DNA of 64,000 nt from NCBI GenBank assembly GCA_049451635.1, contig JBMTVT010000001.1, positions 9,644-73,643 of the forward strand. The letters are read 5' to 3'. This DNA comes from Tamlana sp. (GTDB lineage Bacteria > Bacteroidota > Bacteroidia > Flavobacteriales > Flavobacteriaceae). The translations under genes and the position numbers were made by a program. Under the pieces are notes generated by a model. The model had not been told where the DNA came from. It did not search any database and was given only the letters and a program-made list of their open reading frames with translations. Positions within the stretch are counted from its first letter, which is position 1. Every line of letters starts with the position of its first letter. Below are positions 4,218 to 50,225 of the stretch, one piece after another.

Positions 4218-4496
4218 ATGGCAAGATCATTAAAAAAAGGACCTTACGTTCATTATAAATTAGAAAGTAAAGTAGCTGCAAATGTTGAAGCTAACAAAAA
4301 AACAGTTATCAAAACTTGGTCTAGAGCCAGTATGATTACTCCGGATTTTGTTGGACAAACAATAGCAGTACACAATGGCCGTCAATTTGTGCCAGTTTAT
4401 GTAACTGAAAACATGGTAGGTCATAAATTAGGAGAATTTTCACCAACACGTTCATTCCGTGGACATGCAGGTGCTAAAAATAAAGGTAAAAAGTAG
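4218..4496 (+). CDS. rpsS: 30S ribosomal protein S19
   Basis: 92 aa, [11 protein letters not shown]...[11 protein letters not shown]. Confidence 0.97.
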
Positions 4497-13349: not shown

Positions 13350-13405
13350 GAGAGATCAGCGATTATCGAAGGATAAGATTAAGACCTTAATTCATAATCA
13401 CTCTC
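13350..13405 (+). promoter_or_regulatory. Nested three-helix structure in the rpsD 5' leader (candidate S4 autoregulatory leader)
   Basis: gagag/ctctc encloses gattat/ataatc, which encloses aagg/cctt. It ends 17 nt before the rpsD ATG. Confidence 0.4.
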
Positions 13406-13422
13406 AATAAACAAATTTAAAA

Positions 13423-14028
13423 ATGGCAAGATATACTGGTCCTAAAACTAAAATAGCTCGTAAATTTGGTGAAGCTATCTTCGGAGATGATAAGTCATTC
13501 GAAAAAAGAAATTACCCTCCAGGTCAACATGGAAATAACAGAAGACGTGGAAAAAAATCTGAATACGCAATCCAATTACAGGAAAAGCAAAAAGCTAAAT
13601 ATACCTATGGTATTTTGGAGCGTCAATTCAGAAACTTATTTAAAAGCGCAAGAGCTGCACAAGGTATTACAGGGGAGGTTTTATTACAACTATGTGAGTC
13701 TAGATTAGATAACATAGTGTTTAGAATGGGTATTGCTCCTTCTAGAAGCGCTGCAAGACAATTAGTTTCGCACAGACACATTACTGTAAACGGTGAGTTG
13801 GTAAACATTCCTTCTTATCAATTAAAGGCAGGTGATGTAGTTGCAGTGAGAGAAAAATCAAAATCACTAGAAGCTATTGAAAATTCGCTTTCAATCTCAA
13901 GTCAAGTATATGAGTGGATTACTTGGAATAACGATACTAAACAAGGTACATATGTTTCTGTTCCTGAAAGAATTCAAATTCCAGAAAATATCAACGAACA
14001 ATTCATAGTCGAATTATATTCTAAATAA
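13423..14028 (+). CDS. rpsD: 30S ribosomal protein S4
   Basis: 201 aa, [17 protein letters not shown]... Confidence 0.97.
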
Positions 14029-24652: not shown

Positions 24653-25043
24653 GACTTCTTAAATTTGAGGGAAAATAAGAATGCTTTACTTTGTTGTAAT
24701 TAGTTTGTTAGTTTTTAATTTTTCCAATTAAATGGATACATTAATAGCTTTACCACACAAAAGTTGGAAAAAGCGCTATTATAATCTAATTTCTGCGTTT
24801 TAATACCAATAAATTAGACGAAACGACATTGAAAAAAAGCCCAAAAACTTACGAATAGACGAACTGCAAAAATCATAGAAAAAGAGTAACTTTATCGACG
24901 AAATGCACTTTGTTATTATTATTGTTTTTGCTGCTTAACCTGTTATTTTTTTAGTTTTTTAATGAATAAATTCGAGCCTTTTTCAATCTAAAAGATCAAC
25001 CTTTTTAAAATCAAAAATAGCCATACTACTTTAATAAAAGTTT

Positions 25044-40587: not shown

Positions 40588-40658
40588 ATATTTTTATTTC
40601 GCATAAAAATACAGGAAAAATAAAGAAGAAAAAAATATGGTTTTAGCCTAATTTACAT

Positions 40659-41341
40659 TTATATTTTTTCAATATAAATATTGGATGATCCAGTCGAACG
40701 TAAGTTGATAACGCCGGCATTTACAGTTCGGATTATTTGAACAGTTACTAAATAGCTCGCAACTAAATTAAAAACCTCGGTAATATGCAGTGAACTTTCT
40801 TGATGGCTATTCTTTGTGCGGATGTAACCCTTGGATGAATATGTACCTCGTTGGGTGCCGTTTATTTCTATCCACATTTCAGGGGTTAGCCTATCCGTTC
40901 CTGAAGTGTTTGCCAATGATACATTTACCGTTATTCTGTAACGCCCTATTTTGGTTTACAGTAATGGTATTAAGAGCTGTGTTTGTAGTATACAATGTAG
41001 TGTCATCGTTCCATTCAAGAGTGCTGATTATTGGCGTATTAATAGCCGCATTGCTATTTTCATCCAATGCTGTGTTAGAGGCATCATTACTATATTTAAT
41101 CGATAATTTTCGAGATGTTCTTAGCCAATTAGGAGTAACTGTAGAACCGTAATTAAATTGAAAAATGTTCAATCGGTGTTGTAAACCAATAATCCGTTGG
41201 CTGGATTCGGAATAGAAGCAATTTGAGTAGAGGATAATAGAGGTATGAGTAAGCCCCACTGTTTGATTCGATATCTAAGATAGAAGAGGGGTCGGTTGAG
41301 GTAGTGCCAATACCAACTTGAGAGTAGCTATGATAATTCAT
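40659..41341 (-). pseudogene. Frameshifted remnant of a tail-fibre-like gene with a VGIGT…LDI N-terminal motif
   Basis: Three overlapping minus-strand ORFs in three frames (41153-41371, 40891-41259, 40659-40916). Read across the shifts they continue one another (…SQVGIGTTSTDPSSILDIESNSG / GLLIPLLSSTQIASIPNPANGLLVYNTD… / …ITVNVSLANTSGTDRL…). Confidence 0.5.
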
Positions 41342-41400
41342 GTCAAATAGCCAAATTAAATTGAGATTCAAAATTGGTTAGTCTTAATGCCGAAAACATG

Positions 41401-41408
41401 TATCTTTG
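41401..41408 (+). promoter_or_regulatory. Candidate -7 box TAtcTTTG only 6 nt before the queE ATG
   Basis: Consensus match; would imply a leaderless or near-leaderless mRNA. Confidence 0.25.
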
Positions 41409-42044: not shown

Positions 42045-42052
42045 TATTAAAC

Positions 42053-42138
42053 CATTATTGCGAGTGTAACGAAGCAATCTGTTTAATCTTGATACCATTA
42101 AAAAGATTACTTCGAAATTAAAATTTCTCGCAATGACG
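42053..42138. repeat. REP/MITE-like imperfect palindromic element, copy 1
   Basis: Arms attgcgagtgtaacgaagcaatct and agattacttcg…ctcgcaatgacg. Matches the reverse complement of 62598-62675. Confidence 0.7.
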
Positions 42139-42581
42139 ATTTCAATATTTTTTGGATGATTACTTTACTGGAACTGCCACTCTTGTAGTGCCCCAAGCCA
42201 AATACATGTTGCCATCAGCAAATGCTATTGAGAATGCTTCAACTGCTCCACCAAGACTTACAGGTGCTGTAACACGTAAAACATCATTAGCTTTTTTATA
42301 CCCAAAAGCGCCCCAAACATCTAAATCGTAGTCCCGATGAGATTAACATTATTAGCACTGTTTTGTCCATTTTGTTAATTATTTCTGTTTTTTATTTTCC
42401 TAGTTTATTCTTTTTAAAATTTGAGTTAGTACGACTTTTCTTCACTCATTGTTGTGAATTTGTTTTTGCATTAAAGCTAACTCGTTATATCCCAACTTTT
42501 ATTTCTTTTATGCAGAAAATAAAAGGAATAAACCAAGTTTTGGCTTGTTTTATTCTATAAATACACCTATATTTTGCTATG

Positions 42582-42613
42582 AAAAAATCCTGACAAAAAT
42601 TGTCAGGATTTTT
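42582..42613. terminator. Bidirectional intrinsic terminator (ends the gat-aspS operon on the minus strand)
   Basis: aaaaatcctgaca / tgtcaggattttt, with A/T runs on both sides. Confidence 0.8.
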
Positions 42614-42663
42614 ATTTAGTTCTCGATACATCATGCTATAGCGTGACACTCGAACTGATATAA

Positions 42664-45600
42664 TTATTTATTTCGCATCACCTTTACATTCATCTCTTCC
42701 ACTTTTTTGTCAGATAACATGGAAGGTGCGCCAAACAATAAATCGTCACTGGTGCCTGTTTTTGGAAATGCCATAACCTCACGAATAGAAGCTTTTTTTT
42801 CTAAAATCATCATCAGCCTATCAACTCCCCAAGCAATACCACCGTGCGGTGGTGCGCCGTAATGGAACGCTTTATACATGGTACCTACACTTTTCATCAT
42901 CTCTTCTTTGTTGTAGCCCATATTTCTGTAAGTAGCTTCTAAAATTTCAGGTTTGTGCGCCCGTACCGAACCGCCACCAATTTCGTAACCATTCAAAATC
43001 AAATCGTATTGTTGCGCGATAATGGTACCTATTTCAGCATCTTTACCGTTCATGTGTTTTTCAATATCATACACTGCAGGCATTGAGAAGGGGTTATGGG
43101 TAAATGTCCAACGGCCGTCATCAGTTTTTTCAAACATCGGGAAATCTATTACCCAAGCAGGACGTAATTCTTTCGGGTTTATTAAACGCAACATACTGCC
43201 CAATTCCTGTCTAACTGCATCCAATGCTTTATTGGCAGTAGCATAGTCGGCAGCTGAAAAGAAAACAATATCACCAACTTGTGCATTGGTGGTTTTAATG
43301 ATTCCAGCAGCAATATCTTCACCTAAAAATTTAATAATGGGCGACTGCAAATTGTTTTCATTTACAATAATATATGCTAAACCACCCAAACCATGCTGTT
43401 GTGCAATGGCCGTTAATTTTTCAATTTGCCCTTTAGATAAGCGCTTTTTACCTTGTTCTTTAGCCGATACCTTGATGCATTTAACAATACCACCTTCTTC
43501 AATGGGTTTGCTAAACACTTGAAAGGTTGTTTCCTTAACAATATCTGTAATATCTTGAAGCTGTAAACCAAAGCGTAAATCGGGTCGGTCGCAACCGTAT
43601 TTATCCATGGCGTCTTGATAGGTAATCACTTCAAAAGGATGTAAAATCCATTTATTGCCATAAATTTTTGTAACCACTTCATTAAACATTTTGGTGTTTA
43701 AGTCCATAATTTGTTGCATGCTGGCGTATGCCATTTCTAAATCCAATTGCGTGAATTCAGGTTGTCGGTCACCTCGGGAGTCTTCATCCCTAAAACAACG
43801 TGCTATCTGGAAATATTTCTCGTAACCACTTACCATCAACATTTGTTTAAATTGCTGAGGTGCTTGTGGTAGTGTGTAAAAAGCACCGGCTTGTTTTCGA
43901 GATGGGACTATAAATTCGCGAGCGCCCTCATCGGTTCCAGCACTTAAAATGGGAGTTTCAATTTCAAGGAAATCTTCTTCATCTAAAATATCTCGAAGCA
44001 GTTTAATTACTTTATGGCGATTCACAATGGTTCTGCGAACATCATCATTTCTGTGGTCTAAAAACTTGTATTGAAAACGTGTGTTTTCATTGGTTTTTGT
44101 GGCTCGTTTTATTTCAAAAGGCAGTGTTCTAGATAGGTTTAAAATATCCAATTCATTAGCTTCCAATTCAATTTTCCCAGTTCGCAAGCTCGGGTTGTAA
44201 TCGTCTTCTTTACGTTGTAGAATGGTTCCAGAAACCGTAATAACCGATTCTGGTTTTAGTTTTACCAACTCATCAAGATTTGGAAATGATTCCCTGCTTA
44301 AACGCACTTGGAATTTCTCGGTACTGGAATCTCGTAAATCGATAAAAATGAGTTCCCCATGGTCGCGAACACTGGCAACCCAACCAGCAAAAGTTACCAC
44401 CTGAGAAATACTATCATCTGAAATATCAGTAATCAAATGCGTGCGGTATTTATCTTTTATAATTAGTGGGATTTCAGGAAGTTTTTCTTCTTCTTTAGCT
44501 TCTGGCTTTTGGCTTTTGATTTTTGGCTTTTCATCACTTACAATTTCCGACTTCTGTCTTTCCACATCTCCAGCCAGCGAAGCTAAAATACCCTCTCGAA
44601 TGACTTTTCCTGAAGCGCCTTTACCAATAATGGCAATTACTTTTCCAACTAAGATACCCGCCTTTCCTTGATTACCAGCTTTAATATCGTTTGCAATAGC
44701 TTCATTTTCAGTAATTACTTTGCTTATGGCATCATATATTTTGTCTTCGGAAATCGTGTGCGCTTCAAAATACTTATTATAATCAAAATGTCTGTCTTTT
44801 AAATAATTTGTGATAGCATTTTGTACTAAAACCGACGTGATTTTCTCTTCTTTAAAAAGCTGAAAAATTTCAATTAAATGCTCTATACGGTGAATATCGC
44901 CATAGTCTTCTGTACTAATATTGTTGACTAATGTTTTTGTAACAAACGACGGGTCTTTAAGCACATCGTTTATTTGCATAAATGTTTTGGAGCGTAGTGC
45001 GTCTGCCGTAAAAAACTTAGCATCTTGAGGTAACACACCACCTTTAATTATTATGGACTCTACGGCAAAAGGTAATGCGCTTATATCAACGTCAATTGAT
45101 TCTACAACATCTTTAATGCAAACAAAAGGTAAATCGGGTTCAGATATAAAACGGTAATCGGCTTCATATTCCTTTTTGCGCATGGTTTTGGTTTGCTTCA
45201 AATCGGCATCCCATAGGACGGTGGTTTGGTCTGGTCTAAACTCCTTGTGTTCCAGGTAGTAGTTGAGTTGTTTTTCTACTTCTTCCTTTAGGGCATCTAC
45301 CATGAACTTAAACGAGTTTAAGTTTTTTATTTCAGTACGTGGGTTTAAATTGTAACTGTGTTTTTTACGAAGTGATACCGAAACATCCGATTTAAACTCA
45401 CCCTTTTCAAGATTGGCTTCAGAAATTTTTAAATTTTGAACAATACGCTGAATGTATTGCGCATAAGTTGACGCATCTTCAATATGACGAATGCAAGGTG
45501 TGGTAACAATCTCAATAAGAGGTACGCCTGCTTTATTAAAATCTACCAACGACACTTGTTTTTCATGTATTAATTTAGCAGCATCTTCTTCAATATGAAC

Positions 45601-46002
45601 TTGCGACAAATTAACGGTAAACTGAGACCCATCATTTCTAAAACAAGACACTTGCCCATCAGGAATTATGGGGTTGTGAAACTGAGTAATTTGTATATTT
45701 TTTGGGTTATCGGGGTATTCATAATGTTTTCTGTCCCAAGAAATAACCTCATTTTCAAAAGTAGATTTTACAGCTTTACCAAAATAAATAGCTTTCTTAA
45801 TAACTTCTTTATTTATTGCCGGGAGCACACCCATTTGTCCAGTACAAACCGAACAAATATTTTGATTTGGGATATCAACTTCTTCATTGGGGCAAGAACA
45901 AAATAATTTGGTCTTTGTGTTTAACCGAACATGCGTTTCCAGCCCGATTACCAATTCTAACTCGTGTGCTTTTAATGCAGCATCTAATTCTTTCAATTCC
46001 AT
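42664..46002 (-). CDS. gatB-aspS: Fusion protein: Asp-tRNA(Asn)/Glu-tRNA(Gln) amidotransferase subunit B (aa 1-~478), K/E-rich linker, then bacterial-type aspartyl-tRNA synthetase (aa ~518-1112)
   Basis: Uninterrupted 1112-aa ORF. GatB motifs: VIGLETHVRLNTKTKLFCSC, DRKHYEYPDNPKNIQITQ, VHIEEDAAKL, VDFNKAGVPLIEIVT. AspRS motifs: FLEIETPIL, FRDEDSRGDRQPEFTQLDLE, GAD-type insertion, GGIAWGVDRLMMIL. Confidence 0.88.
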   Translation of the reverse strand: MELKELDAALKAHELELVIGLETHVRLNTKTKLFCSCPNEEVDIPNQNICSVCTGQMGVLPAINKEVIKKAIYFGKAVKSTFENEVISWDRKHYEYPDNPKNIQITQFHNPIIPDGQVSCFRNDGSQFTVNLSQVHIEEDAAKLIHEKQVSLVDFNKAGVPLIEIVTTPCIRHIEDASTYAQYIQRIVQNLKISEANLEKGEFKSDVSVSLRKKHSYNLNPRTEIKNLNSFKFMVDALKEEVEKQLNYYLEHKEFRPDQTTVLWDADLKQTKTMRKKEYEADYRFISEPDLPFVCIKDVVESIDVDISALPFAVESIIIKGGVLPQDAKFFTADALRSKTFMQINDVLKDPSFVTKTLVNNISTEDYGDIHRIEHLIEIFQLFKEEKITSVLVQNAITNYLKDRHFDYNKYFEAHTISEDKIYDAISKVITENEAIANDIKAGNQGKAGILVGKVIAIIGKGASGKVIREGILASLAGDVERQKSEIVSDEKPKIKSQKPEAKEEEKLPEIPLIIKDKYRTHLITDISDDSISQVVTFAGWVASVRDHGELIFIDLRDSSTEKFQVRLSRESFPNLDELVKLKPESVITVSGTILQRKEDDYNPSLRTGKIELEANELDILNLSRTLPFEIKRATKTNENTRFQYKFLDHRNDDVRRTIVNRHKVIKLLRDILDEEDFLEIETPILSAGTDEGAREFIVPSRKQAGAFYTLPQAPQQFKQMLMVSGYEKYFQIARCFRDEDSRGDRQPEFTQLDLEMAYASMQQIMDLNTKMFNEVVTKIYGNKWILHPFEVITYQDAMDKYGCDRPDLRFGLQLQDITDIVKETTFQVFSKPIEEGGIVKCIKVSAKEQGKKRLSKGQIEKLTAIAQQHGLGGLAYIIVNENNLQSPIIKFLGEDIAAGIIKTTNAQVGDIVFFSAADYATANKALDAVRQELGSMLRLINPKELRPAWVIDFPMFEKTDDGRWTFTHNPFSMPAVYDIEKHMNGKDAEIGTIIAQQYDLILNGYEIGGGSVRAHKPEILEATYRNMGYNKEEMMKSVGTMYKAFHYGAPPHGGIAWGVDRLMMILEKKASIREVMAFPKTGTSDDLLFGAPSMLSDKKVEEMNVKVMRNK

Positions 46003-47402
46003 TATATCACATCTTTTAAGAAGTTAGCAAATTTTAAAACGAGTTCGTCATTGTTTTTTGCAGCAGTAATCTGCAAACCTGTTTCGGTGCCTTGCGGAAT
46101 GGTTAATGTTGGTAATTGCCCAAGGCTAAAACCAACCGTATAGGCGTCACTTAAATACATGGCGTGTGGGTCTTTTAAACTATCTCCAATTTTTGGAGGT
46201 GAGCTAGGTGTAACAGGCGATAAAATAACATCTACCTCTTTGAAGTCTTGCTCAAAGTTTTGGGAAATAGCATCACGTAGCGCTAATCCTTTTAAATAAA
46301 TTTCGTCTGAAAACCCTTGTGATAATACTTGGTTGCCTCCAACAATACGTCGTTTGGTTTCTTCTGAGAAATTTTCAGAACGGGTAATGGCGTAAGATTC
46401 TTTAAGGTTTTTATCATCAATGCGATTACCGTAATTAGAACCATCTAAACGGGATAGGTTAGAAGCTGTTTCTGCCATGGCTAAGGTATAATACGTAGAA
46501 ACTAAAGTGTTTGAATCAAAAAAATCCAAAGACTTAACTTTAATGCCTTTAGTTTTTATTTTTTCAATGGATGCTAAAAAGTCAGCTTTAATTTTAGGGT
46601 CAATCGCGTCACTTTCAATGAAGTTTTTAAAGTAGCCAACGGTTTTTATGCCTTCTAAATTTTTAATGGTATCAACATCAATTTCTACGGAAGCGTAAGT
46701 GGTTTGATCTTTTACATCTTTACCGCTCATTATGTTCAGAACTATACGGATATCCTCAATAGATTTTGCAATAGGGCCAACACAATCTGTAGATGATGCA
46801 TAAGCCATTAAACCAAAGCGTGAAATACGTCCATAAGTGGGTTTTAAACCATACACATGATTATAACCAGCTGGTTGACGTACCGAACCACCAGTATCGC
46901 CTCCAATTGAAAAAACCGTATAATCTAAAGCTACATTAACCGCAGAGCCACCACTGGAACCACCACCTACCAAATTTGGGTTTATGGCATTTTTTACGGC
47001 ACCAAAAATGGTGTTTTCGCTAGATGACCCATGCCCAAAACTATCGCAGTTTTCTTTTACAATAGGAATAGCACCAGCATCGAGTAGTTTTTGAATAGCG
47101 GTAGCTGTATAAGCCGATTTGTAGTATTTTAATAGGTTGGAACTCGCCGTTGTGCAAGTGCCTTGAAGCATGTACACGTCTTTAATGCCAAAAGGAATGC
47201 CTTCCAATAAGCCAATGGTTTCGCCATTAGCTATTTTAGCATCCACTTTAGCAGCTAGGTCAAAAGCTAAAGAATCTAATAAACTGTTAACCGTGTTGTG
47301 CGTGTTTTGTTTTAGTAAGTTGAGTTTTTCCTGTATCAGGTCCTTACAAGATATATCCTTGTTCACCAATTGCTGATGAATTTTATGTATTTGAGATTCC
47401 AT
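46002..47402 (-). CDS. gatA: Amidotransferase subunit A (amidase signature family)
   Basis: 466 aa, ...GIPFGIKDV..., GGSSGGSA, GGDTGGSVRQPA. Its stop overlaps the fusion ORF start (TAATG). Confidence 0.88.
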   Translation of the reverse strand: MESQIHKIHQQLVNKDISCKDLIQEKLNLLKQNTHNTVNSLLDSLAFDLAAKVDAKIANGETIGLLEGIPFGIKDVYMLQGTCTTASSNLLKYYKSAYTATAIQKLLDAGAIPIVKENCDSFGHGSSSENTIFGAVKNAINPNLVGGGSSGGSAVNVALDYTVFSIGGDTGGSVRQPAGYNHVYGLKPTYGRISRFGLMAYASSTDCVGPIAKSIEDIRIVLNIMSGKDVKDQTTYASVEIDVDTIKNLEGIKTVGYFKNFIESDAIDPKIKADFLASIEKIKTKGIKVKSLDFFDSNTLVSTYYTLAMAETASNLSRLDGSNYGNRIDDKNLKESYAITRSENFSEETKRRIVGGNQVLSQGFSDEIYLKGLALRDAISQNFEQDFKEVDVILSPVTPSSPPKIGDSLKDPHAMYLSDAYTVGFSLGQLPTLTIPQGTETGLQITAAKNNDELVLKFANFLKDVI

Positions 47403-47404
47403 AA

Positions 47405-47674
47405 TTATTCTTCTATAATTTTAGAAACCACCAAATATCCGTTTTTCTCTTTTGGGAAATTCTCAATAATGATTTGTTTTTCCAGATCAGAACTTTCAAT
47501 CACTAAATCATCTCTCAAATTTTCTAAAGACACACAATTATTATGTTTGGTATTAAAGGAGTTGTTGTTTGTTGGTTGTGCATTTTTAATTACATCAAAC
47601 AATTTGTTAACCGCTTCACTTGGTTGTGCTCCTTTAATACTCGACAAAATATCGACCGTCATAATTTTACTCAT
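47405..47674 (-). CDS. gatC: GatC-like amidotransferase subunit C (divergent N-terminal half)
   Basis: 89 aa. The C-terminal half …LENLRDDLVIESS…ENFPKEKNGYLVVSKIIEE matches the GatC LReD…aP…g.f.VPkvie pattern. Sits 2 nt upstream of gatA. Confidence 0.6.
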   Translation of the reverse strand: MSKIMTVDILSSIKGAQPSEAVNKLFDVIKNAQPTNNNSFNTKHNNCVSLENLRDDLVIESSDLEKQIIIENFPKEKNGYLVVSKIIEE

Positions 47675-47691
47675 GTCTAAAATTTTAAATT

Positions 47692-47720
47692 AAAAAAGCC
47701 TTCCGGTTTCGGAAGGCTTC
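47692..47720 (-). terminator. Intrinsic terminator 17 nt UPSTREAM of gatC on the same strand (attenuator terminator)
   Basis: Minus strand reads aagccttccg-aaac-cggaaggctt followed by tttt: a 10-bp stem with a U-tract of 6 including the last 2 stem positions. Confidence 0.75.
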
Positions 47721-47749
47721 AAATATTTTCAAACAATAACCTTCCTGTC

Positions 47750-47797
47750 CTAAAAATTAGGATTATTGAAATTATTATTGTTATTGTTGTTTACCAT
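47750..47797 (-). CDS. Asn-rich leader peptide MVNNNNNNNFNNPNF (15 codons, 10 Asn)
   Basis: Hand translation of the minus strand: ATG GTA AAC AAC AAT AAC AAT AAT AAT TTC AAT AAT CCT AAT TTT TAG. The stop lies 4 nt before the candidate antiterminator segment GGAAGGUU. Confidence 0.6.
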   Translation of the reverse strand: MVNNNNNNNFNNPNF

Positions 47798-47813
47798 TGT
47801 ATTATTTGAAGGT

Positions 47814-47821
47814 CAAATATA
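47814..47821 (-). promoter_or_regulatory. Candidate -7 box TAtaTTTG for the leader/gat operon transcript
   Basis: Minus strand reads tatatttg, 16 nt upstream of the leader ATG. Confidence 0.35.

Positions 47822-48206: not shown

Positions 48207-50225
<2,019 letters not shown>

What the first reader, a model, noticed from the sequence alone, without database searches (positions are those of the whole stretch)
42582..47674. gatC-gatA-gatB::aspS packed as one translationally coupled operon
Seen in sequence:
- The gatC-like ORF (47405-47674) ends 2 nt before the gatA ATG (47402).
- The gatA stop overlaps the fusion ORF start (TAATG at 46000-46004).
- A bidirectional terminator (42582-42613) follows the fusion ORF.
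- All four activities needed to turn tRNA(Asn) plus Asp into Asn-tRNA(Asn) are therefore on one transcript with coupled stoichiometry.
- The GatC-like protein matches GatC only in its C-terminal half (…LRDD…ENFPKEKNGYLVVSKIIEE). Its N-terminal half is atypical, which could reflect adaptation to the fused partner.

From memory, unverified: gatA, gatB and gatC are usually scattered in Bacteroidota genomes.

Inference: this is either a dedicated, possibly second, indirect Asn pathway module or the organism's only route to asparagine. The latter would resemble Deinococcus and Thermus, where tRNA-dependent amidation is the sole Asn biosynthesis.
Basis: partly seen in the sequence, partly recalled or inferred. 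Interest (0 to 1): 0.7.

Follow-up and report, generated by a model that had tools for sequence, protein, structure and literature searches.

The report
Asn-regulated gatC-gatA-gatB::aspS operon
This is a real, tightly packed operon found across many Flavobacteriaceae in which the enzyme that loads aspartate onto tRNA is fused to the enzyme complex that converts it to asparagine. In this genome it sits behind a previously undescribed asparagine-sensing leader-peptide switch.

Summary
Three minus-strand ORFs are packed with a 2-nt gap and a 1-nt TAATG overlap:
- an 89-aa divergent GatC
- a 466-aa GatA
- a 1112-aa GatB::AspRS fusion

A hairpin terminator follows.

The arrangement is not special to this genome.
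- The fusion occurs in at least 586 species-level genomes, mostly named Flavobacteriaceae.
- All 80 loci examined keep the gene order.
- 79 of 80 keep the TAATG overlap.
- gyrB lies alongside in 62 of 80.
- NCBI already names the protein [quoted passage not shown].
- No paper describing the fusion was found.

It has four parts:
- a Bacteroidota-type -7 box
- a 15-codon ORF, MVNNNNNNNFNNPNF
- an alternative antiterminator pairing
- a strong terminator 17 nt before gatC

This Asn-codon attenuator is present in about half of the related loci. In 69 of 70 metagenome contigs it lies just upstream of gatC, and the seventieth is too short to tell. Rfam holds no matching family.

The attenuator ties the operon to Asn-tRNA(Asn) supply. 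A published gene census fits the fused enzyme being the only AspRS and the only asparagine source, but I could not show this for this genome:
- Polaribacter: gatCAB 1, aspS 1, asnS 1, glnS 1, no asnA or asnB
- 13 other Flavobacteriaceae: no gatCAB, asnB present

Verdict: a known pathway in a fused, annotated but uncharacterised form, with a new regulatory element.

The parts
47814..47821 (-). Bacteroidota-type -7 promoter box TATATTTG (TAnnTTTG), 16 nt upstream of the leader ATG
   Evidence: Read from the sequence. TTATTCTrTATATATTTG or TATCTTTG is conserved 15-20 nt upstream of the leader ATG in the 35 leader-bearing sequences. Promoter function is inferred from the known Bacteroidota consensus and was not tested.
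47750..47797 (-). Leader ORF MVNNNNNNNFNNPNF* (10 Asn among 15 codons)
   Evidence: An Asn-rich mini-ORF (consensus M-x-N5-7-F-N-N-P-N-x) was found in 35 sequences by pattern (window plus 34 loci) and in a 36th (L053) by the covariance model. It is also present in 69 of 70 metagenome contigs that were picked by the RNA motif alone. AAT/AAC synonymous variation is visible in the alignment.
47732..47782 (-). Segment 1:2 hairpin. The last Asn codons plus UUUC pair with GAAGG-UUAUUGUU, and an inner CCUAA/UUAGG hairpin spans the stop codon.
   Evidence: MFE structure, z = -4.97. Cells paired are 94-97% across 35 sequences.
47738..47745 (-). Segment 2 core GGAAGGUU, the antiterminator 5' arm
   Evidence: It pairs with 47718-47711 in 99.6% of cells. 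This pairing is the MFE (-9.8 kcal/mol) of the nascent RNA when segment 1 is masked and segment 4 is not yet made.
47690..47720 (-). Intrinsic terminator (segments 3:4): GAAGCCUUCCG-AAAC-CGGAAGGCUUU plus a U run, ending 17 nt before the gatC ATG
   Evidence: 11 pairs, 93% of cells paired, with a compensatory AU to GC change at the top pair (16 versus 9 sequences). The covariance model scores 120.9 bits here. There is a sub-threshold Rfam Phe_leader hit of 40.9 bits at 47690-47791.
47405..47674 (-). gatC: a divergent 89-aa GatC. It has a conserved N-terminal 32 residues, a variable Asn-rich insert, and a canonical C-terminal LRxD...ENFP...G...VVxKVIE part.
   Evidence: All 27 orthologues hit PF02686. 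Identity across genera is 64-99%.
46002..47402 (-). gatA: the glutaminase subunit, with the amidase signature intact
   Evidence: The best solved relative is GatA of the P. aeruginosa transamidosome (4wj3_A, 2.2e-91). The KD, GGSSGGSA and DTGGSvRQPA motifs align.
44563..46002 (-). GatB module of the fusion (residues 1-480): cradle domain GatB_N 17-298 and YqeY tail 372-474
   Evidence: 3h0l_B 8.8e-71; NF004012 392 bits, above its cutoff of 338.
44452..44562 (-). Linker (residues about 481-517), Lys/Glu/Pro-rich
   Evidence: Residues 481-500 are the only poorly conserved stretch of the protein: column identity 0.26 against 0.7-0.99 elsewhere. Total length stays at 1107-1129 aa in the 80 proteins compared (the window's and 79 from loci).
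42664..44451 (-). AspRS module of the fusion (residues 518-1112): OB anticodon-binding domain and a class II core with a GAD insertion (bacterial type)
   Evidence: NF001750 708 bits; 4wj3_M 1.6e-133.
42583..42613 (.). Hairpin terminator with A and T runs on both sides, 50 nt after the fusion stop codon

Best explanation
**What it is**
The locus is a conserved Flavobacteriaceae operon that encodes a covalently tethered asparagine transamidosome.

**How it is expressed**
- One transcript probably starts at a Bacteroidota-type promoter (-7 box at 47821-47814) and ends at the hairpin at 42613-42583.
- Its three cistrons are translationally coupled (a 2-nt gap and a 1-nt overlap).
- Coupling should give GatC, GatA and GatB::AspRS in matched amounts.

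**What the proteins do**
- The AspRS half aspartylates tRNA(Asn). It most likely also charges tRNA(Asp), as the cell's only AspRS.
- The GatCAB part is held to it by a variable-sequence linker of roughly 25-40 residues, whose length changes little between genomes.
- GatCAB amidates Asp-tRNA(Asn) to Asn-tRNA(Asn) using glutamine hydrolysed by GatA.
- Because AspRS is a dimer, the particle would be (GatC-GatA-GatB::AspRS)2. That is the stoichiometry I recall for the P. aeruginosa transamidosome.

**How it is regulated in this genome**
Expression is set by a ribosome-mediated attenuator.
- When Asn-tRNA(Asn) is plentiful, the ribosome reads through the ten Asn codons of the 15-codon leader to the UAG. 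There it covers GGAAGGUU, and the terminator at 47720-47690 forms.
- When Asn-tRNA(Asn) is scarce, the ribosome stalls in the Asn run and frees GGAAGGUU.
- GGAAGGUU then pairs with AAGCCUUCC before the 3' arm of the terminator is made, and transcription reads into gatC.

**Shown and inferred**
- Shown: the ORFs, domains, junctions, conservation, the alternative pairings and their linkage to gatC.
- Inferred: the promoter, non-discriminating specificity, sole-AspRS and sole-Asn-route status, complex geometry, and actual read-through control.
For: **Anatomy and domains**
-.

**Conservation**
- The fusion is in at least 586 species-level genomes.
- Gene order holds in 80 of 80 loci, at 81-89% identity.
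- TAATG is kept in 79 of 80, and the gatC-gatA spacer is 1-5 nt in 73 of 78.
- gyrB is adjacent in 62 of 80 loci, at 78-95% identity. The fusion therefore evolves at a housekeeping rate in a conserved core neighbourhood.

**Linker**
- It is the only variable stretch of the protein.

**Attenuator**
- The Asn-rich leader ORF plus terminator was found in 36 related loci.
- The MFE is -30.1 kcal/mol, z = -4.97.
- The 1:2 helices are 94-97% paired. The terminator is 93% paired with compensatory changes. The antiterminator is 99.6% paired.
- The antiterminator is the MFE of the nascent RNA when segment 1 is masked.
- The element lies upstream of gatC in 69 of 70 metagenome contigs chosen by RNA motif alone. 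The seventieth is too short to tell. In 69 of 70 the Asn-rich ORF is present.
- The covariance model finds no other copy in the window or in the flanks.
- The nearest Rfam family is a leader-peptide attenuator, Phe_leader (40.9 bits, E 2.6e-5, full-length match).

**Role**
- Census in PMC4206432 Table S1: Polaribacter sp. MED152 has gatCAB 1, aspS 1, asnS 1, glnS 1, asnA 0, asnB 0 and a U1-A72 tRNA(Asn).
- Thirteen other Flavobacteriaceae in that table have gatCAB 0 and asnB at least 1.
- glnS is present throughout, which leaves Asn as the job of GatCAB.
Against: **Whole-genome content is unknown**
- I could not inspect this genome, so asnS, asnB or a second aspS cannot be excluded here.
- The census genome (MED152) was not directly shown to carry the fusion. 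Only its genus was, with more than 20 Polaribacter loci.

**tRNA specificity is unresolved**
- Two positions that I recall from memory as important in P. aeruginosa ND-AspRS give a split answer. His is present at the H31 position, and Asp stands in place of Gly at the G82/83 position.

**Limits of the attenuator evidence**
- About half of the related genomes lack the attenuator and have only a promoter-like element. Asn control is therefore dispensable.
- The antiterminator shows no covariation. It is nearly invariant, as expected for a segment that must pair with two partners.
- It is weaker than the terminator: -9.8 to -12 against -18 to -22 kcal/mol. It must therefore act kinetically.
- Putting a sole housekeeping AspRS behind an Asn-controlled terminator requires substantial basal read-through.

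**GatC identity rests on weak profile hits**
- The AlphaFold2 model was uninformative, with pLDDT 43.
Confidence: 0.7

Rival explanations
1. The operon is a second, dedicated indirect Asn module. A canonical stand-alone AspRS elsewhere charges tRNA(Asp), and the fused AspRS serves only tRNA(Asn). This would parallel AspRS2 of Thermus and Deinococcus.
For: - The fused AspRS is at most 51% identical to any stand-alone AspRS representative, so it is a distinct lineage.
- An Asn-controlled terminator is easier to reconcile with an enzyme that is not needed for tRNA(Asp).
- This genome's full gene content is unknown.
Against: - The census counts one aspS in the gatCAB-bearing Polaribacter.
- The fusion is as conserved as gyrB and sits in a conserved core neighbourhood.
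- No second AspRS, GatA or GatB hit occurs in any of the 80 loci, although these cover only about 6 kb on each side.
Confidence: 0.2
2. The GatCAB encoded here mainly serves Gln-tRNA(Gln) formation (Glu-AdT), and its fusion to AspRS has no bearing on that role.
For: Bacterial GatCAB enzymes are generally dual-specific in vitro (established knowledge).
Against: - glnS is present in all 14 Flavobacteriaceae of the census.
- The fusion partner is AspRS, not GluRS.
- The leader senses Asn codons, not Gln codons.
Confidence: 0.04
3. The upstream hairpin is only a transcription terminator or insulator between divergent genes. The Asn-rich mini-ORF is an untranslated by-product of A/T-rich sequence.
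For: - The genome is A/T-rich, and AAT/AAC runs occur elsewhere (47791-47771 and 24926-24912).
- There is no gene upstream on this strand, so no experiment or annotation demands a leader.
Against: - The mini-ORF keeps its ATG, frame, stop codon and 6-10 Asn through synonymous AAT/AAC changes in more than 100 independent sequences.
- The stop codon sits at a fixed distance of 3-6 nt from GGAAGG.
- The three mutually exclusive pairings are conserved.
- No gene ends upstream on this strand that would need a terminator.
- The other Asn run, at 24926, has no start codon, stop codon or terminator.
Confidence: 0.06

Closest known systems
Bacterial Asn-transamidosome (ND-AspRS + GatCAB + tRNA(Asn)); solved for Pseudomonas aeruginosa (PDB 4WJ3) and Thermus thermophilus (3KFU)
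   Same: - The four protein activities are the same.
- GatA and the AspRS module have their best solved relatives in 4WJ3 (4wj3_A 2.2e-91, 4wj3_M 1.6e-133).
- The AspRS is the bacterial type with a GAD insertion.
   Different: - Here GatB and AspRS are one polypeptide joined by a variable linker. In the solved complexes the partners associate non-covalently.
- GatC is shortened and divergent at its N-terminus.
- Complex formation, stoichiometry and tRNA channelling were not tested here.
tRNA-dependent asparagine biosynthesis as the sole Asn route (Deinococcus radiodurans, Thermus thermophilus; proposed for Bdellovibrio and Legionella)
   Same: The census pattern for the fusion-bearing genus Polaribacter is AsnRS + GlnRS + GatCAB with no AsnA or AsnB (PMC4206432 Table S1; review PMC2330236).
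   Different: - Deinococcus and Thermus use a second, archaeal-type ND-AspRS. Here there is one bacterial-type AspRS, and it is fused to GatB.
- The status of this particular genome is inferred, not shown.
NCBIfam NF009460 (PRK12820), bifunctional aspartyl-tRNA synthetase / amidotransferase subunit C
   Same: An AspRS is fused to a subunit of the same amidotransferase.
   Different: - The partner (GatC rather than GatB) and the order differ.
- The window protein scores 467 bits against a cutoff of 1379 and matches only through its AspRS part. It is not a member.
Ribosome-mediated leader-peptide attenuators (trp, his, leu, thr, pheA and pheST; Rfam Phe_leader RF01859)
   Same: - A short ORF rich in regulatory codons.
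- A 1:2 hairpin, a 2:3 antiterminator and a 3:4 terminator.
- Like pheST, it controls an aminoacyl-tRNA synthetase operon.
   Different: - The regulatory codons are Asn.
- The host is a Bacteroidota member with a TAnnTTTG promoter.
- The sensed species, Asn-tRNA(Asn), is the direct product of the controlled enzymes.
- The match falls below the Rfam gathering score (40.9 against 55), and no Rfam 15 family covers it.
GatB::AspRS fusions outside Bacteroidota (Aminipila sp. WP_331655381.1, 1090 aa; Bacillota MAG proteins of 1029-1040 aa)
   Same: The GatB-then-AspRS order is clear for the Aminipila protein, which matches the query over its full length.
   Different: - The Aminipila protein is 37% identical over its full length.
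- The 1029-aa Bacillota protein matched at 43% only through its AspRS part (best stretch 457-1018), so its N-terminal half was not identified here.
- Both are annotated only as aspartate--tRNA ligase.
- Their operon context and any leader were not examined.

Membership tests
GatCAB tRNA-dependent amidotransferase | GatA: amidase-signature glutaminase subunit | tested here: met
   - Pfam Amidase 2e-107.
- The best NCBIfam match is TIGR00132 gatA, at 417 bits. This is below the equivalog cutoff of 481, so the protein is a divergent GatA.
- The top seven solved relatives are all GatA, and the KD, GGSSGGSA and DTGGSvRQPA motifs align.
GatCAB tRNA-dependent amidotransferase | GatB: cradle (GatB_N) domain plus C-terminal YqeY tail | tested here: met
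   - PF02934 2.8e-91 (residues 17-298).
- PF02637 3.7e-9 (residues 372-474).
- NF004012 392 bits, above its cutoff of 338.
- 3h0l_B 8.8e-71.
GatCAB tRNA-dependent amidotransferase | GatC: small subunit matching the GatC profile, encoded next to gatA | tested here: inconclusive
   - The window protein is below the Pfam and TIGRFAM cutoffs: 16.7 against 23 bits, and 20.6 against 47.1.
- All 27 orthologues hit PF02686, best E 4.8e-6.
- The family profile finds GatC 3h0l_C only at E 0.2.
- The AlphaFold2 model has pLDDT 43.
- Its position and coupling to gatA are conserved.
- Taken together, it is a divergent GatC that fails the curated thresholds.
Bacterial-type aspartyl-tRNA synthetase (class IIb) | N-terminal OB anticodon-binding domain and a class II core with a GAD insertion | tested here: met
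   - PF01336, PF00152 and PF02938 all match.
- NF001750 708 bits against a cutoff of 443.
- TIGR00459 641 bits against a cutoff of 374.
Non-discriminating AspRS | Aspartylates tRNA(Asn) as well as tRNA(Asp) | not testable with these tools
   Sequence hints only.
- The OB domain scores better against chains labelled Asp/Asn ligase (7e-20 to 5.5e-18) than against the E. coli and T. thermophilus Asp-specific enzymes (1.5e-14, 4e-13).
- His is present at the P. aeruginosa H31 position, but Asp stands at the G82/83 position. The importance of these two positions is recalled from memory.
Transamidosome (stable AspRS-GatCAB-tRNA particle) | Physical association of AspRS with GatCAB | tested here: met
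   - The covalent link between GatB and AspRS is read directly from one uninterrupted 1112-aa ORF.
- The ORF is intact in the 80 full-length proteins compared (the window's and 79 from loci).
- Association with GatA and GatC, tRNA binding and channelling were not tested.
Leader-peptide transcription attenuator | Short ORF enriched in codons of the sensed amino acid, immediately upstream of an intrinsic terminator | tested here: met
   - 10 of 15 codons are Asn.
- The terminator has 11 pairs plus a U run.
- The arrangement is conserved in 36 loci and 69 of 70 metagenome contigs.
Leader-peptide transcription attenuator | Mutually exclusive antiterminator pairing whose formation depends on ribosome position | tested here: met
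   - GGAAGGUU pairs with AAGCCUUCC in 99.6% of cells.
- This pairing is the MFE when segment 1 is masked.
- GGAAGG begins 6 nt after the stop codon, inside a ribosome footprint.
- No covariation is available, because the segment is nearly invariant.
Leader-peptide transcription attenuator | Read-through responds to charged-tRNA level | not testable with these tools
   This needs reporter, Term-seq or in vitro transcription-translation experiments.
Rfam Phe_leader RF01859 | Score at or above the gathering threshold | tested here: not met
   40.9 bits against 55. The regulatory codons are Asn, not Phe. It resembles this family but is not a member.

The most novel reading that the evidence does not exclude
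In these Flavobacteriaceae asparagine is made only on tRNA, by a single fused particle that is also the cell's only AspRS. The cell gauges its asparagine supply by letting a ribosome read a run of Asn codons ahead of that operon. This would be a leader-peptide attenuator for asparagine, the first I know of, in which the sensed molecule (Asn-tRNA(Asn)) is the immediate product of the controlled enzymes. The patchy distribution would reflect repeated swapping between two complete solutions: the fused operon, or asnB plus a stand-alone aspS. Both states occur within Flavobacterium and Algibacter-like genera, and the operon appears complementary to asnB.
Probability: 0.4. Interest if true: 0.7.

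Novelty: new variant of a known kind. Interest (0 to 1): 0.55.

Why it matters
- **A natural covalent transamidosome.** How mischarged Asp-tRNA(Asn) is kept away from the ribosome is a standing question for the indirect pathway. A natural GatB::AspRS fusion, conserved at housekeeping level in hundreds of species, offers a ready-made tethered complex for structural and kinetic work.
- **A regulatory argument for function.** The Asn-codon attenuator shows from sequence alone that the operon is wired to asparaginyl-tRNA supply rather than aspartyl-tRNA supply. It is also a compact, testable switch in a phylum where few ribosome-mediated attenuators have been characterised.
- **A practical consequence.** Metabolic reconstructions that score Polaribacter, Tamlana, Algibacter and many Flavobacterium genomes as asparagine auxotrophs because asnA and asnB are missing would be wrong if this operon supplies Asn.

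Tried and rejected
1. **AlphaFold2 of the GatC-like protein (41-sequence alignment).** pLDDT was 43 and pTM 0.24. This is uninformative, as expected for a subunit that folds only around GatA and GatB. No fold search was run on it.
2. **GatC family profile against PDB.**
   - The top hits were TAL effectors and designed repeat proteins.
   - No single stretch of those hits was significant.
   - They arise from summing many weak matches to the N-terminal 'SSIKGAxPSExVNKLFDVIK' motif, so I rejected them as repeat artefacts.
   - GatC 3h0l_C matched only at E 0.2.
3. **Confirming that the census genome Polaribacter sp. MED152 carries the fusion.** I looked up the 90% clusters of ten Polaribacter fusions. 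MED152 was not among the members, so this remains unverified.
4. **Looking for a pre-fusion gatB-aspS gene pair around the closest stand-alone AspRS family (P0244, 51% identity).**
   - No gat genes lie nearby.
   - The contigs are from unnamed MAGs and the genes do not translate with table 11.
   - This gave no insight into the origin of the fusion.
5. **Calling the AspRS discriminating or non-discriminating from two remembered signature positions.** The result was split. I could not find the source paper in the library.
6. **The sigma-70 promoter scan.** It found no more hits than in shuffled sequence, and it is the wrong model for Bacteroidota. I used it only for terminators.
7. **A second Asn-codon run at 24926-24912.** It has no start codon, no stop codon in frame and no terminator. 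I rejected it as a leader.
8. **Literature searches for the fusion under six name variants, and for an Asn leader-peptide attenuator.** Nothing was found. The library lacks most subscription journals, so absence is weak evidence.

Full report

Yes. Three ORFs lie head to tail on the minus strand:
- 47674..47405 (89 aa)
- 47402..46002 (466 aa)
- 46002..42664 (1112 aa)

The sequence shows two tight junctions:
- GAA GAA TAA-tt-ATG at the first junction, a 2-nt gap.
- TAATG at 46004-46000 at the second, where the stop and start codons share one base.

Fifty nucleotides after the last stop codon there is a 14-pair hairpin (42583-42613). It has an A run on one side and a T run on the other, so it can act in both directions.

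Profile searches confirm the gene identities.
- The 466-aa protein is an amidase-signature protein whose best family is GatA (7.6e-125). It scores below the equivalog cutoff, 417 against 481 bits.
- The 1112-aa protein carries GatB_N (17-298), the GatB YqeY tail (372-474), an OB fold (536-620) and a class II core with a GAD insertion (638-1082).
- It passes the curated cutoffs for both GatB (392 against 338) and bacterial AspRS (708 against 443).
- The best solved relatives of GatA and of the AspRS half are the two corresponding chains of the Pseudomonas aeruginosa asparagine transamidosome, 4WJ3.
- The amidase signature motifs align.

**2. Is the 89-aa ORF a GatC?**

On its own it is below every curated threshold: Pfam GatC E 0.0086, TIGR00135 E 4e-4, and only residues 25-88 match.

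It is nevertheless a real, conserved protein. It is 64-99% identical across genera, and sources label roughly half of the copies GatC and half 'hypothetical'.

All 27 diverse orthologues hit Pfam GatC, with a best E of 4.8e-6. The alignment shows three regions:
- an invariant N-terminal 32 residues
- a variable Asn-rich insert
- the canonical C-terminal LRxD...ENFP...G.LVV.KVIE part

A family profile against PDB, and an AlphaFold2 model with pLDDT 43, added nothing.

I read it as a divergent GatC with a remodelled N-terminus.

**3. How general is the arrangement?**

Very general.
- The best 80 are 81-89% identical and come from Tamlana, Algibacter, Mariniflexile, Confluentibacter, Aestuariibaculum, Polaribacter, Flavobacterium, Lutibacter, Flavicella, Jejuia and others.
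- Every locus long enough has gatC-gatA-fusion in this order.
- The TAATG overlap is kept in 79 of 80, and the gatC-gatA spacer is 1-5 nt in 73 of 78.
- All 80 fusion proteins compared (the window's and 79 from loci) are intact at 1107-1129 aa.
- The only variable stretch is the Lys/Glu/Pro-rich linker at about residues 481-505, with column identity 0.26 against 0.7-0.99 elsewhere.

gyrB lies next to the operon in 62 of 80 loci. It is 78-95% identical, the same range as the fusion. The other neighbours here are housekeeping genes: queE, mdh, secDF and a pseudouridine synthase.

This is therefore a core, slowly evolving operon, not a recently acquired accessory module.

NCBI already names the product 'bifunctional amidotransferase subunit GatB/aspartate--tRNA ligase AspS'.

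More distant fusions exist.
- Two metagenomic proteins match the query over their full length, at 58% and 42% identity (1112 and 1074 aa).
- An Aminipila sp. (Clostridia) protein of 1090 aa does so at 37%.
- A 1029-aa Bacillota protein matches only through its AspRS part, so its N-terminal half is unidentified.

I found no paper that describes the fusion. The library misses most subscription journals.

**4.

The terminator scan flagged a perfect hairpin, GAAGCCUUCCG-AAAC-CGGAAGGCUUU followed by a U run, at 47720-47690. It ends only 17 nt before the gatC ATG. No gene ends upstream on that strand.

Just upstream is a 15-codon ORF (47797-47750) that reads MVNNNNNNNFNNPNF.
- Sixteen nucleotides before its ATG is TATATTTG, the Bacteroidota TAnnTTTG -7 box.
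- The box is conserved at that position in the related leaders.

The predicted fold has an MFE of -30.1 kcal/mol and z = -4.97.
- It pairs the last Asn codons and the Phe codon (ACAAUAAUAAUUUC) with GAAGGUUAUUGU. This is segment 1:2.
- It then forms the terminator, segment 3:4.
- Segment 2 (GGAAGGUU) can instead pair with the terminator's 5' arm (AAGCCUUCC).

Counts on an alignment of 35 leaders:
- 1:2 helices: 94-97% of cells paired.
- Terminator: 93% paired, with compensatory AU/GC exchange at its top pair (16 against 9 sequences).
- Antiterminator: 99.6% paired. It is invariant, so there is no covariation.

With segment 1 masked, as under a ribosome stalled on the Asn codons, and segment 4 not yet made, the antiterminator is the minimum-energy structure at -9.8 kcal/mol. 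The terminator is stronger, at -18 to -22 kcal/mol, so the switch must be kinetic, as in the classical trp attenuator. That comparison is from established knowledge.

GGAAGG begins 6 nt after the UAG. A ribosome that reaches the stop codon would therefore cover it and allow termination.

This is the textbook layout of a ribosome-mediated attenuator. The nearest Rfam family is the phenylalanine leader, as a sub-threshold full-length match (40.9 bits, gathering score 55, E 2.6e-5). No Rfam 15 family reaches threshold.

**5. Is the leader more than chance?**

- A covariance model built from the alignment finds 36 strong matches (68-126 bits). Every one is directly upstream of gatC, and none is elsewhere in the window or in the flanks of about 6 kb on each side.
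- A scan of metagenome contigs used only the RNA motif GGAAGGTTRTTGTTT...AGCCTTCC. It returned 70 contigs.
  - 69 have gatC just downstream, and the other is too short to tell.
  - 69 carry the Asn-rich mini-ORF, with many different peptide variants that keep 6-9 Asn.
- Third positions of the Asn codons vary between T and C.
- About half of the related loci lack the leader. These include all the Flavobacterium loci, Lutibacter, and some Algibacter, Tamlana, Mariniflexile and Polaribacter.
- Those loci have instead a conserved promoter-like AAAACTTTYGTAATTTTGCC.GCTTAAAAGTTTGACTTTAAAAC shortly before gatC.
- The attenuator is therefore an optional layer on a constitutive operon.

**6. What the operon is for**

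The regulatory codons are Asn, not Asp or Gln. Selection has therefore tied this AspRS-GatCAB unit to the supply of Asn-tRNA(Asn).

A published census of 547 genera supports this (PMC4206432, Table S1).
- Polaribacter sp. MED152 has asnA 0, asnB 0, gatCAB 1, aspS 1, asnS 1, glnS 1 and a U1-A72 tRNA(Asn).
- The 13 other Flavobacteriaceae listed all have gatCAB 0, asnB at least 1, aspS 1, asnS 1 and glnS 1. They are Aequorivita, Cellulophaga, Croceibacter, Flavobacterium branchiophilum, Flavobacteriaceae bacterium 3519-10, Gramella, Krokinobacter, Lacinutrix, Maribacter, Nonlabens, Psychroflexus, Zobellia and Zunongwangia.

Polaribacter is a fusion-bearing genus, with more than 20 loci. The likely picture follows:
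- The fused enzyme is the only AspRS, so it must serve both tRNA(Asp) and tRNA(Asn).
- GlnRS makes the amidotransferase unnecessary for Gln.
- The operon replaces asparagine synthetase.
- AsnRS remains to recharge free Asn.

This is the Deinococcus/Thermus logic (PMC2330236), but with one bacterial-type, fused AspRS rather than a second archaeal-type enzyme.

Two caveats apply.
- I could not show that MED152 itself has the fusion.
- I could not inspect the rest of this genome.

The fused AspRS is at most 51% identical to any stand-alone AspRS representative. It is therefore a separate lineage from the stand-alone flavobacterial enzyme. The patchy distribution, even within Flavobacterium, suggests switching between two alternative gene sets. 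That is inference.

**7. Mechanism, with its status**

Shown:
- Translationally coupled cistrons.
- A covalent GatB-linker-AspRS chain.
- Profile matches above the curated cutoffs for GatB and AspRS, and aligned amidase signature motifs in GatA.
- The conserved alternative RNA pairings and their exclusive linkage to gatC.

Inferred:
- The promoter and the single transcript.
- A (GatC-GatA-GatB::AspRS)2 particle formed through AspRS dimerisation.
- Hand-over of Asp-tRNA(Asn) from the synthetase site to the GatB site without release.
- Discrimination against Asp-tRNA(Asp) by the U1-A72 rule (PMC1635274, seen by title and abstract only).
- Asn-dependent read-through.

Sequence hints on tRNA specificity are split.

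**8. Verdict**

- The architecture is common and already annotated.
- The remembered 'scattered genes' contrast does not hold for this family.
- The either/or question (second module or sole route) leans towards sole route but is not settled.

The new content is the asparagine leader-peptide attenuator.

I rate the whole as a new variant of known kinds: an indirect Asn pathway in fused form, under a classical attenuation mechanism keyed to a new amino acid. Interest is 0.55.

Noticed in passing
window 47690-47821 (- strand): An Asn-codon leader peptide (MVNNNNNNNFNNPNF) with 1:2, 2:3 and 3:4 alternative pairings and a TAnnTTTG -7 box lies directly upstream of gatC. It is not in Rfam, is conserved in about half of the related loci, and is always linked to gatC.
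   Followed up: yes
L006, L008, L013, L015, L016, L018, L021, L022, L042-L051, L054-L058, L061-L076 and others; about 10-60 nt upstream of gatC (around locus position 4270-4330): Loci without the Asn leader share a conserved promoter-like block, AAAACTTTYGTAATTTTGCC.GCTTAAAAGTTTGACTTTAAAAC. The operon therefore exists in an attenuated and a non-attenuated form, sometimes within one genus.
   Followed up: partly
window 13361-13399 (+): This is the only Rfam match above gathering score in the window: the S4-Flavobacteria ribosomal protein leader (RF03141, 51.5 bits), just upstream of the ORF at 13423-14028.
   Followed up: no
P0243 (Aminipila sp., WP_331655381.1, 1090 aa); P0251/P0410/P0411 (Bacillota, 1029-1040 aa): A full-length GatB::AspRS fusion also occurs in Clostridia (Aminipila, 37% identity). 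The 1029-1040-aa Bacillota proteins matched at 43% only through their AspRS part. All are annotated simply as aspartate--tRNA ligase. Their origin (independent or shared) was not examined.
   Followed up: no
L081 6001-7818; L082 6001-7812; L083 77-1888: The closest stand-alone AspRS family (P0244 group, about 51% identical to the fused AspRS) sits in unnamed MAG contigs. The gene does not translate to the recorded protein with table 11, which may mean an alternative genetic code. One neighbour has a Por_Secre_tail (type IX secretion) domain. No gat genes are adjacent.
   Followed up: partly
window 40588-41405 and 42045-42582: Two stretches of about 800 and 540 nt flank queE. They contain only short overlapping ORFs on both strands and have no Rfam or tRNA hit. 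Their content is unexplained.
   Followed up: no
window 48216-48275 (+): The mechanical gyrB ORF starts at 48216, but homologues align only from residue 17-21 onward. The true start is probably the ATG at 48276 (MSEEKEEF...). That leaves about 450 nt of A/T-rich divergent intergenic DNA between gyrB and the operon's promoter.
   Followed up: no
GatC-like protein residues 7-38 (window 47656-47561, - strand): The conserved N-terminal motif VDILSSIKGAxPSExVNKLFDVIKNA gives many weak matches to each repeat of TAL effectors and designed helical repeat proteins (summed E down to 2e-11, with no single stretch significant). I judged this a repeat-summing artefact, though it may indicate a helix-loop-helix shape.
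   Followed up: partly
window 24912-24926 (- strand): A second run of five Asn codons lies in an intergenic region. It has no start codon, no in-frame stop and no terminator, so it is not a leader.
   Followed up: yes
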